Shown: positions 33,171-34,136 of the stretch, one piece after another
How the letters are laid out: the number at the start of each line of letters is the position of its first letter
Position numbering within the stretch: the first letter of the stretch is position 1
UHGV virus genome: UHGV-1354897
Length of the DNA stretch: 61,496 nt
DNA from: a virus
Direction: 5' to 3' (one strand)
Notes under the pieces: generated by a model
What the model was told of the DNA's origin: nothing
The model's input: the letters and a program-made list of their open reading frames with translations, nothing else
Databases searched by the model: none
Program-made: the position numbers and the translations under genes

Positions 33171-34136
33171 ATGCCAGAGGGTATTTATATAAACTACAAT
33201 GACGGCAGACCTGCAATGCAGATAACAGCAGGATTACGCGCCCCGTCTTTTTGCGCCAACTTCAATCAACGCTGTCAATCCGATAAAACTCTAACCATCA
33301 ATACACCTTTAACGCCGGGATCGCAGCTTATCGTTGTTATGACTAACCCCGTTGAAGTATTAGAAGTATTTGATCAGACGCTAGTTATCCCTGATCCAAT
33401 GTATGTAACGTCTGTAACTCGAAACGGTGACGGTGGGGTGACGTTGCGAGGCGCGGATGGACTTAGCGCTTATAGTGGATTGCCGCAATGGGCAGGGGTA
33501 ATTATGGAAGTGTTACCTGTAGGAACGCGAAACGAGGGTCTATTTGTAGCTAACTCCACGGACTTCACAGCAATATCCAACGCAGCCTTTCTCATGACTT
33601 GTCAGTATTCCCAGTACGTGTGGGTTAACGGCAGTATGCCATTGCCCGTGGGGGGTATTCCGTTTGCTCGCTGGAACGACCCTAACGTGTCAGTAGGTTT
33701 TGATGGTTCAAATATTATTGTGCGAAATGCAGCGTATGGCGGAATTGATGATGTATCCGCTTCGGTTGGCATGGAGTTGGTAATATTTAATAACACGCCC
33801 CCACAGCCTGGTGAGGGTATCACCATGACGAACAACGCCGGACAGGTAACGTTCTCCACTGTTAAGAAGCCGTTTGTATTCAACGGGACAGTGAACCTTA
33901 GCGCTGGTTGGCAGAATATTGGAAATAGCTTGATACAGCTTTCGTACACGGGTACGCTTATTGAAAACAATAGCGGTTATAATCATATACGCATGAACGG
34001 GATCCGCATGGCGGATAATGTGGTAGGTGCTGCAAGAAACCGCGTGGTAGGTAACTACTCACGTCAACAATTCCAGTTGCCTGGTCGCAACGTTGTCATC
34101 CCAACACCCCTTATAGTCATACCAAATATGTATTAA
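33171..34136 (+). CDS. hypothetical Asn/Gly/Val-rich protein on the opposite strand inside the tail module
   Basis: 322-aa ORF with GGAG RBS, own upstream A/T-rich region and own terminator; no motif recognised. Confidence 0.6.
   Translation: MPEGIYINYNDGRPAMQITAGLRAPSFCANFNQRCQSDKTLTINTPLTPGSQLIVVMTNPVEVLEVFDQTLVIPDPMYVTSVTRNGDGGVTLRGADGLSAYSGLPQWAGVIMEVLPVGTRNEGLFVANSTDFTAISNAAFLMTCQYSQYVWVNGSMPLPVGGIPFARWNDPNVSVGFDGSNIIVRNAAYGGIDDVSASVGMELVIFNNTPPQPGEGITMTNNAGQVTFSTVKKPFVFNGTVNLSAGWQNIGNSLIQLSYTGTLIENNSGYNHIRMNGIRMADNVVGAARNRVVGNYSRQQFQLPGRNVVIPTPLIVIPNMY

What the first reader, a model, noticed from the sequence alone, without database searches (positions are those of the whole stretch)
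33171..34136. Isolated opposite-strand gene with its own promoter region and terminator inside the tail-fiber module
This is the only rightward gene in a ~32-kb leftward block. It lies between the tail fiber and J-like genes, has its own A/T-rich upstream region and ends at a bidirectional terminator. The product is Asn/Gly/Val/Thr-rich and beta-like with no recognisable motif. It could be a moron, a second receptor-binding protein or a superinfection-exclusion factor.
Basis: seen in the sequence. Interest (0 to 1): 0.6.

Follow-up and report, generated by a model that had tools for sequence, protein, structure and literature searches.

The report
Phage receptor-binding protein targeting LptD
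The lone opposite-strand gene is the phage's terminal receptor-binding protein, a close relative of one already solved by cryo-EM bound to the bacterial outer-membrane LPS exporter LptDE, so it is an ordinary, already-described part of the tail tip rather than a moron or exclusion factor.

Summary
A 321-aa ORF at 33171-34136 (+) is the only credible rightward gene in a ~31-kb leftward block. It has an AT-rich upstream region and a strong hairpin shared with the convergent J gene. It is not an orphan. It is a full-length member of Pfam DUF6453 (E 9e-130). It is 76% identical end-to-end to the Oekolampad (Bas18) receptor-binding protein, solved bound to LptDE (PDB 9RPT; Dunbar 2025). It is 92.5% and 65% identical to the same gene in ChristophMerian and VogelGryff, both experimentally LptD-dependent (Maffei 2021). 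A confident AF2 model (pLDDT 92) matches only 9rpt_C in the PDB. The opposite-strand, J-convergent orientation is the standard layout of this "bona fide RBP locus" in Dhillonvirus, Rogunavirus and Queuovirinae. Other Queuovirinae (CAjan, Dru_SM1) instead carry a small lipoprotein gene plus a longer J at this slot. The gene is therefore the LptD-specific terminal RBP that docks on the J tail tip. One mildly novel point: this phage and VogelGryff lack the Rtp45-type exclusion lipoprotein that accompanies this RBP in other phage groups. Verdict: already known, low interest.

The parts
33171..34136 (+). Gene for the LptD-targeting terminal receptor-binding protein (321 aa, DUF6453/PF20051)
   Evidence: Pfam PF20051 E 8.7e-130, 432.7 bits against a cutoff of 25. 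phrog_1265 E 1.2e-119. PDB 9rpt_C/9rpw/9rqi E 8.3e-165 over residues 2-321. 76% identity to bas18_0025, 92.5% to Bas19 and 65% to Bas25. AF2 model pLDDT 92.1 matches 9rpt_C with E 7e-33 and TM 0.89.
33162..33165 (+). Shine-Dalgarno GGAG, 5 nt before the ATG
   Evidence: Read directly from the sequence. Invariant in all six aligned upstream regions.
33047..33170 (.). Divergent AT-rich intergenic region between the lateral tail fiber gene and the RBP gene. This is the presumed promoter region, but no promoter is demonstrated.
   Evidence: 71.8-74.5% AT. 98-100% identical to VogelGryff although the RBP ORF interior is only 50-70% identical. No sigma-70 consensus site found. The position homologous to the TTGACT-N16-TATATT promoter of the lipoprotein-type alleles is degenerate here, ATGGAT-N17-TATGGT.
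33149..33161 (+). Copy of the over-represented 13-mer TAACCACAYTGTT, immediately before the RBS
   Evidence: 7 copies in the window against 0.25 expected; 0 of 100 shuffles reach 7. The 17-mer including GGAG is identical at 58036-58052. Function unknown.
34137..34160 (.). GC-rich hairpin between the convergent stop codons of the RBP and J genes; a likely bidirectional terminator
   Evidence: dG -17.2 kcal/mol on both strands. Position conserved across three phage groups with different stem sequences. Annotated as a bidirectional terminator in SA126VB and AKS96.
34170..36809 (-). J-like tail tip protein (879 aa from the ATG), the inferred carrier of the RBP
   Evidence: Phage_Tail_Tip E 2.6e-40, Ig_J_second E 7.4e-35. 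97.6% identical to VogelGryff J.
34173..34262 (-). Last 30 codons of J (GFTGNGGITIDSNGIRVPLSGGGVVIVGRW): an allele-specific tail and the inferred docking site for the RBP
   Evidence: J residues 1-853 are 97% identical to Dru_SM1 J; the two then diverge completely. The same tail motif ends every J or J-like protein that is followed by a DUF6453 gene, including the podophage protein ECBP2_0018. It is absent from the extended J of CAjan and Dru_SM1.
30941..33046 (-). Lateral tail fiber gene (primary, glycan-type receptor recognition); flanks the cassette
   Evidence: Prophage tail fibre N-terminal E 5e-23, Laminin_G_3; phrog_1419 tail protein. The ATG at 33046 matches the starts annotated in relatives.

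Best explanation
The ORF encodes the phage's terminal (irreversible-adsorption) receptor-binding protein, specific for the outer-membrane LPS translocon LptD.

Inferred mechanism. The soluble all-beta monomer is made late in infection and attaches non-covalently to the distal end of the J-like tail tip protein, probably via J's short allele-specific C-terminal tail. The lateral tail fibers first engage surface glycans. The RBP then inserts into the extracellular mouth of an open state of LptDE, contacting loops EL3-5 and EL11. This commits the virion to DNA ejection.

Genetic organisation. The gene sits in the exchangeable 'bona fide RBP locus' downstream of and convergent with gpJ. The whole cassette (intergenic region, RBP gene, hairpin, last 30 codons of J) is swapped between phage lineages by recombination.

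Shown here: family membership, fold, synteny and cassette boundaries. Shown in the literature for close homologs: LptD dependence and the LptDE-RBP structure. Inferred only: LptD binding by this particular protein, docking on J, and late expression.
For: Sequence: DUF6453 E 8.7e-130. Full-length phmmer match to PDB 9rpt_C/9rpw/9rqi, E 8.3e-165. That chain is identical to Oekolampad bas18_0025. The structure is RBPOeko inserted into open LptDE (PMC12685063).

Identity: 76% to RBPOeko, 92.5% to ChristophMerian and 65% to VogelGryff. All three phages are listed with LptD as terminal receptor in the BASEL S5 table. VogelGryff's lptD dependence was complemented (PMC8594841). Family members down to 33% identity (Rtp44, Bas01) are also linked to LptD.

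Fold: the AF2 model has pLDDT 92.1 and pTM 0.91. Its only significant PDB neighbour is 9rpt_C (E 7e-33, TM 0.89, rmsd 2.6 A).

Contact residue: Gln299, named in the paper's text as H-bonding LptD Ser350, is conserved.

Synteny: the same layout, with RBP convergent on J and the lateral tail fiber gene on the far side, occurs in Oekolampad, CHD5UKE2, AKS96, VogelGryff, ChristophMerian and SA126VB.

Allelic cassette: CAjan and Dru_SM1 carry a 77-aa lipoprotein plus a 983-1040-aa J instead. No DNA aligns between about 33020 and 34270 against Dru_SM1.

Docking: the J C-terminal tail motif co-occurs with DUF6453 across sipho- and podophages.

Literature: four unrelated protein families at this locus each track one receptor. 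Cryo-EM confirmed the Bas18 RBP on the extracellular face of LptD (bioRxiv 10.64898/2026.04.02.716166).
Against: Nothing here tests this particular protein. There is no binding, adsorption or virion-proteomics evidence for this phage.

24% of residues differ from RBPOeko. The full list of LptD contact residues is only available as an image, so interface conservation could be checked for one residue only. VogelGryff, which is LptD-dependent, has lost that same residue, so it is not diagnostic.

No promoter was identified, so the timing of expression is unknown.

The J-tail docking idea rests on co-occurrence only. J proteins paired with FhuA- or BtuB-type RBPs were not examined, so the motif may be a general RBP dock rather than one specific to DUF6453.

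The cognate SE lipoprotein that accompanies this RBP in other lineages is absent.
Confidence: 0.93

Rival explanations
1. It is a tail-tip receptor-binding protein of this family, but its specificity has drifted to a receptor other than E. coli LptD, for example the LptD of another genus or a different outer-membrane protein.
For: 24% of residues differ from RBPOeko. The RBP ORF interior is a divergence hotspot: 50-70% DNA identity to VogelGryff between flanks that are 98-100% identical. Close relatives are deposited under Salmonella and Aeromonas host names. Family members occur in Klebsiella, Citrobacter and Salmonella phages and prophages.
Against: LptD dependence has been shown or assigned across the whole identity range of the family: 92.5% (Bas19), 76% (Bas18), 65% (Bas25) and about 33% (Bas01/Rtp44). 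The preprint reports that this family associates specifically with LptD. LptD is highly conserved in Enterobacteriaceae, so a change of host genus would still mean LptD.
Confidence: 0.04
2. It is a moron or accessory 'membrane protein' (the PHROG label). On this reading it is an independently transcribed, non-structural gene inserted in the tail module that modifies the infected cell.
For: phrog_1265 is filed under 'moron, auxiliary metabolic gene and host takeover' and described as 'membrane protein'. The gene has the opposite orientation with its own flanking AT-rich region and hairpin. Homologs occur in bacterial chromosomes, presumably in prophages.
Against: There is no signal peptide, transmembrane segment or lipobox. 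The homolog is a soluble protein that binds LptDE from the outside. The slot is filled in every relative by a host-recognition cassette and is never empty. GC content is 47.0% against 44.6% for the genome, which is not foreign-looking. The last 30 codons of J co-vary with the gene.
Confidence: 0.015
3. It is a superinfection-exclusion factor that blocks the receptor from inside the infected cell.
For: SE genes do live in this locus in related phages. CAjan-type alleles have an SE-like lipoprotein at exactly this position and orientation.
Against: The SE factors of this system are 73-81-aa lipoproteins (PF24052) that act from the periplasm. This protein is 321 aa with no export signal. It is homologous to the RBP and not to the SE protein: an SE profile HMM gives a best E of 1.5 anywhere in the window.
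Confidence: 0.01

Closest known systems
RBPOeko (bas18_0025) of Escherichia phage Oekolampad, Dhillonvirus; PDB 9RPT/9RPW/9RQI chain C (Dunbar et al., PNAS 2025, PMC12685063)
   Same: Same family (DUF6453) and same length (321 aa). 76% identity over the full length. Same fold (TM 0.89). Same genomic position and orientation, convergent with gpJ and followed by the lateral tail fiber gene. Gln299 is conserved.
   Different: Different phage lineage: a 61-kb Queuovirinae genome against a 45-kb Dhillonvirus. J is 879 aa against 1148 aa and is alignable only in the last ~200 residues (37% identity). Oekolampad has the SE lipoprotein bas18_0026 immediately upstream of the RBP; this phage has none.
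The 'bona fide RBP locus' LptD alleles of Queuovirinae phages ChristophMerian (bas19_0020) and VogelGryff (bas25_0021) (Maffei et al., PLoS Biol 2021, PMC8594841)
   Same: The same gene in the same slot of the same phage subfamily. 92.5% and 65% protein identity. The upstream region and J are nearly identical. Both phages are experimentally LptD-dependent. Both loci also lack an SE lipoprotein gene next to the RBP.
   Different: Only allelic sequence differences. Those records annotate the gene as 'hypothetical protein'.
Rtp44 / Rtp45 module of phage Rtp and AugustePiccard (Drexlerviridae)
   Same: A DUF6453 RBP downstream of J, assigned to LptD. The paper reports a very similar predicted fold.
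   Different: Rtp44 is about 33% identical to RBPOeko per the paper; identity to this window's protein was not measured. Rtp44 is always paired with the periplasmic SE lipoprotein Rtp45, whose LptDE complex is solved. No Rtp45 homolog is present here.
Phage T5 pb5 / Llp (FhuA-binding RBP and its SE lipoprotein)
   Same: It works in the same way. It is a separate monomeric RBP carried at the tip of a siphophage central fiber that plugs an outer-membrane beta-barrel and triggers ejection. The tail-proximal part is disordered in the receptor complex.
   Different: No sequence or fold relationship: Foldseek found no PDB neighbour other than 9rpt_C. The receptor is different (FhuA). T5 has an SE partner.
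CAjan/Dru_SM1-type allele of the same locus (LamB type in BASEL relatives such as SeppeHuegi)
   Same: Same slot. It also has an opposite-strand gene convergent with J, with a hairpin between them. Homologous flanks.
   Different: The opposite-strand gene is a 77-aa lipoprotein, not an RBP. Receptor binding is built into a 100-160-aa C-terminal extension of J. The upstream region carries a near-consensus sigma-70 promoter.

Membership tests
DUF6453 / LptD-targeting siphophage RBP family (RBPOeko, Rtp44) | Full-length sequence homology above the curated family threshold | tested here: met
   PF20051: 432.7 bits against a cutoff of 25, profile positions 1-290 of 291. phmmer against 9rpt_C: E 8.3e-165 over residues 2-321.
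DUF6453 / LptD-targeting siphophage RBP family (RBPOeko, Rtp44) | Same three-dimensional fold as the solved RBPOeko | tested here: met
   The AF2 model has pLDDT 92.1. Foldseek against the PDB gives 9rpt_C at E 7e-33, TM 0.89 (normalised to the target) and rmsd 2.6 A; the next hit is at E 0.15.
DUF6453 / LptD-targeting siphophage RBP family (RBPOeko, Rtp44) | Encoded directly downstream of, and convergent with, the gpJ-like tail tip gene | tested here: met
   RBP stop at 34136 and J stop at 34170, with a 33-nt spacer containing a hairpin. Six relatives from three phage groups have the identical layout.
DUF6453 / LptD-targeting siphophage RBP family (RBPOeko, Rtp44) | Partner J protein lacks an intrinsic receptor-binding extension and ends in the short conserved tail | tested here: met
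   J is 879 aa and ends ...GGGVVIVGRW, like Oekolampad, CHD5UKE2, AKS96 and ECBP2_0018. CAjan and Dru_SM1 J proteins are 983-1040 aa with unrelated ends.
DUF6453 / LptD-targeting siphophage RBP family (RBPOeko, Rtp44) | Conservation of LptD-contacting residues | tested here: inconclusive
   Only Gln299 is named in accessible text, and it is conserved here. The full contact table (SI Fig. S7A) is an image. VogelGryff lacks Gln299 yet uses LptD.
DUF6453 / LptD-targeting siphophage RBP family (RBPOeko, Rtp44) | Infection depends on LptD; the protein binds LptDE | not testable with these tools
   Known for relatives at 92.5%, 76% and 65% identity. Needs plating on lptD mutants and pull-downs for this phage.
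DUF6453 / LptD-targeting siphophage RBP family (RBPOeko, Rtp44) | Present in the virion at the tail tip | not testable with these tools
   No proteomic data were found for any family member in the searchable literature.
LptD-type host-recognition module (RBP plus cognate SE lipoprotein, PF24052) | Rtp45/SEOeko-type lipoprotein gene adjacent to the RBP | tested here: not met
   Only 124 nt separate the RBP from the lateral tail fiber gene. tblastn gives a best E of 1.0 or worse. A profile HMM over 1307 six-frame segments gives a best E of 1.5. The VogelGryff whole genome gives a best E of 1.4, with positive controls at 1e-35 to 1e-39. The module is therefore incomplete here. This does not affect membership of the RBP family.
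Superinfection-exclusion lipoproteins (Rtp45, Cor, Llp) | Signal peptide with lipobox; small (60-110 aa) periplasmic protein | tested here: not met
   321 aa. The N-terminus MPEGIYINYNDGRPAMQ has no hydrophobic leader or lipobox Cys. There is no similarity to the SE profile.
Moron (independently transcribed accessory gene inserted between conserved genes) | Dispensable insertion, absent from the empty site in relatives, atypical composition, own promoter and terminator | tested here: not met
   No relative has an empty site; the slot always holds an RBP and/or SE cassette. GC is 47.0% against 44.6%. A hairpin terminator is present, but no promoter was detected.

The most novel reading that the evidence does not exclude
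LptD-targeting Queuovirinae (this phage and VogelGryff) carry the LptD RBP without any Rtp45/PF24052-type exclusion lipoprotein. Dhillonvirus, Rogunavirus and Braunvirinae (Rtp) phages, and LamB-type Queuovirinae, all keep a lipoprotein in this slot.

The most novel reading is that these phages protect progeny from futile adsorption to LptD on infected cells and debris by a different, unrecognised mechanism. That could be a non-homologous factor encoded elsewhere in the genome. Alternatively, it could rest on the RBP's dependence on a rare open, actively translocating LptDE state that dead cells and debris do not present.
Probability: 0.2. Interest if true: 0.4.

Novelty: already known. Interest (0 to 1): 0.15.

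Why it matters
For annotation, the gene and its 95%-identical copies in deposited genomes are labelled 'hypothetical protein' or 'membrane protein / moron'. They can be renamed 'LptD-binding receptor-binding protein', and the phage's terminal receptor can be predicted as LptD from sequence alone.

LptD is essential and surface-exposed, so LptD-targeting phages are of interest for therapy and phage steering. The biology itself (locus, receptor, structure, exclusion mechanism) was published in 2021-2025, so nothing new about the mechanism emerges here.

The only open thread is why the Queuovirinae version of the cassette has dropped the exclusion lipoprotein.

Tried and rejected
1. Single-sequence AF2 gave pLDDT 33 and was unusable. 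It was replaced by a model built on a 56-sequence alignment.

2. I tried to obtain the list of RBPOeko-LptD contact residues from the paper's SI. The table is an image, so only Gln299 could be checked.

3. I considered that the Citrobacter phage HCF1 hit to residues 1-34 (82% identity) marked a shared N-terminal J-docking module. Inspection showed a 34-codon relic of the RBP gene abutting a longer J, which is a recombination scar, in an UNVERIFIED assembly. The idea was rejected.

4. I looked for a sigma-70 promoter in 33047-33170 on both strands. None passed the scanner's threshold. The only + strand site in that area lies inside the ORF.

5. I looked for an SE lipoprotein elsewhere in the window by tblastn, two lipobox scans and a profile HMM. 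The one lipobox-like hit (25193..25372) lies in phrog_26834, and its hydrophobic segment is internal to a 94-aa protein. It is therefore not a lipoprotein of this type.

6. I tested whether the 13-mer upstream of the RBS is part of a larger promoter-like element. There is no flanking conservation among the 7 copies.

7. Literature searches for DUF6453 and Rtp44 found no virion proteomics for the family.

8. Not done: comparing J tails of FhuA- and BtuB-type phages, to see whether the tail motif is specific to the LptD type.

Full report
**1. What is there**

The window is a Queuovirinae siphophage genome of the Seuratvirus/Nonagvirus (9g/CAjan) type. Megablast of 32000-36000 finds Escherichia phage phiG7 (94%), SA126VB (91.8%) and other 58-63-kb relatives.

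The ORF exists exactly as described. It starts at ATG 33171, preceded by GGAG at 33162-33165, and stops at 34134-34136, giving 321 aa. The ORF listing extends it to a TTG at 33135.

A gene map shows that every credible ORF from 26869 to about 57507 is on the minus strand except this one. Sequence reading extends that block to about 58022. The gene lies between the lateral tail fiber gene (30941-33046) and the J-like tail tip gene (34170-36809).

The region upstream of the ORF is 74.5% AT (33077-33170), within the top 0.24% of 94-nt windows; over the true 124-nt intergenic stretch 33047-33170 it is 71.8% AT. A 10-bp GC-rich hairpin at 34137-34160 (dG -17.2 on both strands) separates the two convergent stop codons. 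The stated Gly/Val/Asn/Thr richness is correct.

Two details of the observation do not hold:
- No sigma-70-like promoter is detectable in the intergenic region.
- The protein does have a recognisable signature.

**2. What it is**

The protein is a full-length member of Pfam DUF6453 (E 8.7e-130) and of phrog_1265.

A search of PDB sequences gives a single hit, 9rpt_C/9rpw/9rqi, at E 8.3e-165 over residues 2-321. That chain is identical to bas18_0025 of phage Oekolampad.

The corresponding paper (Dunbar et al. 2025, PMC12685063) shows by cryo-EM that this receptor-binding protein inserts deeply into the extracellular mouth of an open state of the LPS translocon LptDE. It also shows that single LptD loop mutations abolish both binding and infection. 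Finally, it shows that a small periplasmic lipoprotein (Rtp45, or SEOeko = bas18_0026) provides superinfection exclusion by displacing LptD loop EL4.

Our protein is 76% identical to RBPOeko, 92.5% to the ChristophMerian (Bas19) protein, 65% to the VogelGryff (Bas25) protein and 95% to that of SA126VB. The BASEL S5 table lists LptD as terminal receptor for Bas18, Bas19 and Bas25. The lptD dependence of VogelGryff was confirmed by complementation (PMC8594841).

Maffei et al. had already defined this position as the 'bona fide RBP locus downstream of gpJ', with receptor-specific alleles shared among Drexlerviridae, Dhillonvirus, Nonagvirus and Seuratvirus. A 2026 preprint confirms that the family at this locus tracks LptD specifically.

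As an independent check, an AlphaFold2 model built on 56 homologs is confident (pLDDT 92.1, pTM 0.91, all-beta). Its only significant neighbour in the PDB is 9rpt_C (E 7e-33, TM 0.89, rmsd 2.6 A; the next hit is at E 0.15).

**3. The 'odd' orientation is canonical**

Oekolampad, CHD5UKE2 (Dhillonvirus), AKS96 (Rogunavirus), and VogelGryff, ChristophMerian and SA126VB (Queuovirinae) share one layout. The RBP gene lies on the strand opposite to J and converges on it, a hairpin sits between the two stop codons, and the lateral tail fiber gene is on the far side. The hairpin is conserved in position but not in sequence, which argues that it is functional.

The family is widespread. It occurs in 383 phage records: Escherichia, Klebsiella, Shigella and Salmonella siphophages, some lambdoid phages, and distant copies in podophages. 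It also occurs in Citrobacter, Salmonella and E. coli chromosomes, presumably in prophages.

**4. It is an exchangeable cassette**

CAjan and Dru_SM1, which are otherwise close relatives, carry a different allele at the same slot: a 77-aa opposite-strand lipoprotein plus a longer J of 1040 or 983 aa. In BASEL relatives such as SeppeHuegi this allele type is linked to LamB.

Window J residues 1-853 are 97% identical to Dru_SM1 J. The last 30 residues are unrelated. At the DNA level nothing aligns between about 33020 and 34270.

Against VogelGryff the flanks are 98-100% identical, but the interior of the RBP ORF falls to 50-70%. The ORF itself is therefore a hotspot of replacement or diversification.

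The 30-aa J tail (G-x-F-x-F-x-G ... GG ... V-x-V-G-x-W-stop) recurs at the end of every J or J-like protein that is followed by a DUF6453 gene. This includes the 336-aa ECBP2_0018 of a podophage. The tail is missing from the extended J proteins. I infer that it is the docking site for the RBP. This is co-occurrence only, and J proteins paired with FhuA- or BtuB-type RBPs were not examined.

**5. Mechanism and its status**

Shown here:
- family membership
- fold
- synteny
- cassette limits

Shown in the literature for homologs at 65-92.5% identity:
- LptD is the terminal receptor.
- The RBP plugs the open LptDE barrel through contacts with EL3-5 and EL11.

Inferred only:
- this particular protein binds LptD
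- it rides on the J tail
- it is expressed late

Gln299, the one contact residue named in accessible text, is conserved here. It is not conserved in VogelGryff, so it is weak evidence.

On expression, the lipoprotein-type alleles have a near-consensus TTGACT-N16-TATATT promoter in the intergenic region. The RBP-type alleles have only ATGGAT-N17-TATGGT at the homologous place. That would fit early or constitutive expression of an exclusion factor against activator-dependent late expression of a virion protein. This is speculation.

**6. Rivals**

- A moron or 'membrane protein' (the PHROG label) is contradicted by several results. There is no export signal. The homolog is soluble and acts from outside the cell. 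No relative has an empty site. The GC content is unremarkable (47.0% against 44.6%).
- A superinfection-exclusion role is contradicted by size, by the lack of a lipobox, and by homology to the RBP rather than to the PF24052 lipoproteins.
- Drift to a different receptor is possible but unlikely, because LptD use spans the family from 92% down to about 33% identity.

**7. What is slightly unusual**

In Dhillonvirus, Rogunavirus and Rtp-like phages the RBP is preceded by the SE lipoprotein. Here only 124 nt separate the RBP from the lateral tail fiber gene.

No Rtp45/SEOeko-type gene exists anywhere in the window. tblastn gives a best E of 1.0 or worse. A profile HMM over all six-frame segments gives a best E of 1.5. 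The complete VogelGryff genome is likewise negative (best E 1.4), while positive controls score 1e-35 to 1e-39.

The searchable text of the relevant papers does not comment on this. It may be visible in their figures.

**8. Verdict**

The feature is a known, structurally characterised kind of gene in its standard genomic context. Novelty: already known. Interest: low.

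Noticed in passing
window 33047-33170 and the whole window; also VogelGryff MZ501110 (L012/L013): The LptD-type cassette in this phage and in VogelGryff lacks the Rtp45/SEOeko-type exclusion lipoprotein (PF24052) that precedes the RBP in Dhillonvirus, Rogunavirus and Rtp-like phages. No homolog exists anywhere in either genome (HMM best E 1.5 and 1.4; positive controls 1e-35 to 1e-39).
   Followed up: yes
window 14219-14231(-), 16018-16030, 23547-23559, 25246-25258, 33149-33161, 58036-58048, 60679-60691 (+): The 13-mer TAACCACAYTGTT occurs 7 times against 0.25 expected (0 of 100 shuffles reach 7), and 6 of the 7 copies are on the + strand. The copy before the RBP start and the one at 58036 share an identical 17-mer that includes GGAG, and both sit in divergent intergenic regions. 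There is no flanking conservation and the function is unknown.
   Followed up: partly
L010 (ECBP2 JX415536 20786-21778 and 19747-20757) and L011 (67030-67356): Gordonclarkvirinae podophages (~76 kb; ECBP2, NJ01, Paul, Bas88 and others) encode a bona fide DUF6453 protein (93 bits against a cutoff of 25). It lies directly after a 336-aa protein with a Phage_Tail_Tip domain that ends in the same C-terminal tail motif. They also encode a PF24052 lipoprotein elsewhere in the genome. This suggests they may use LptD. The BASEL-2 paper does not name LptD as their receptor.
   Followed up: partly
L009 (Citrobacter phage HCF1 MN545971) 4272-4602: HCF1 retains an SE-like lipoprotein gene plus only the first 34 codons (82% identity) of the DUF6453 RBP, abutting a 1238-aa J. 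It looks like a relic of cassette replacement. The record is flagged UNVERIFIED_ASMBLY.
   Followed up: partly
window 33260-34100 compared with L005 (VogelGryff): DNA identity to VogelGryff is 98-100% in the upstream intergenic region and 85-98% in J, but only 50-70% inside the RBP ORF. The coding region alone has been replaced or has diversified between otherwise near-identical flanks.
   Followed up: yes
L006 (CAjan) 3425-3558 and L007 (Dru_SM1) 3580-3714, compared with window 33077-33110: The lipoprotein-type alleles carry a near-consensus sigma-70 promoter (TTGACT-N16-TATATT) upstream of the opposite-strand gene. The RBP-type alleles have a degenerate version (ATGGAT-N17-TATGGT) at the homologous position. 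This hints at different expression timing for the two cassette types.
   Followed up: partly
window 51985-52167 (-): This is the homolog (95% identity) of the gene annotated 'o-spanin' in VogelGryff (bas25_0088). It has no lipobox or signal sequence (LVECREVEKIPLVY...), so that annotation looks doubtful.
   Followed up: no
window 36809-36821 and 33047-33076: The mechanical ORF calls start J at a TTG (883 aa) and the lateral tail fiber at a TTG (711 aa). Alignment with relatives and the RBS positions indicate ATG starts at 36809 (879 aa) and 33046 (701 aa).
   Followed up: yes
window 25088-25372 (+): A small conserved protein of unknown function (phrog_26834) with an internal hydrophobic segment ending in a lipobox-like VIGGC, just after the DNA polymerase gene. 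It is probably a single-pass membrane protein and is unrelated to Rtp45-type SE proteins.
   Followed up: partly
phage records MH230177 (Aeromonas phage SD04) and MG065667 / MG065670 (Campylobacter phages A127 / A121): These records carry E. coli-type LptD RBP and/or SE genes: 92% DNA identity for SD04, 63% RBP protein identity for A127 and 60% SE protein identity for A121. Their genome sizes are typical of coliphages. The stated hosts look questionable.
   Followed up: no
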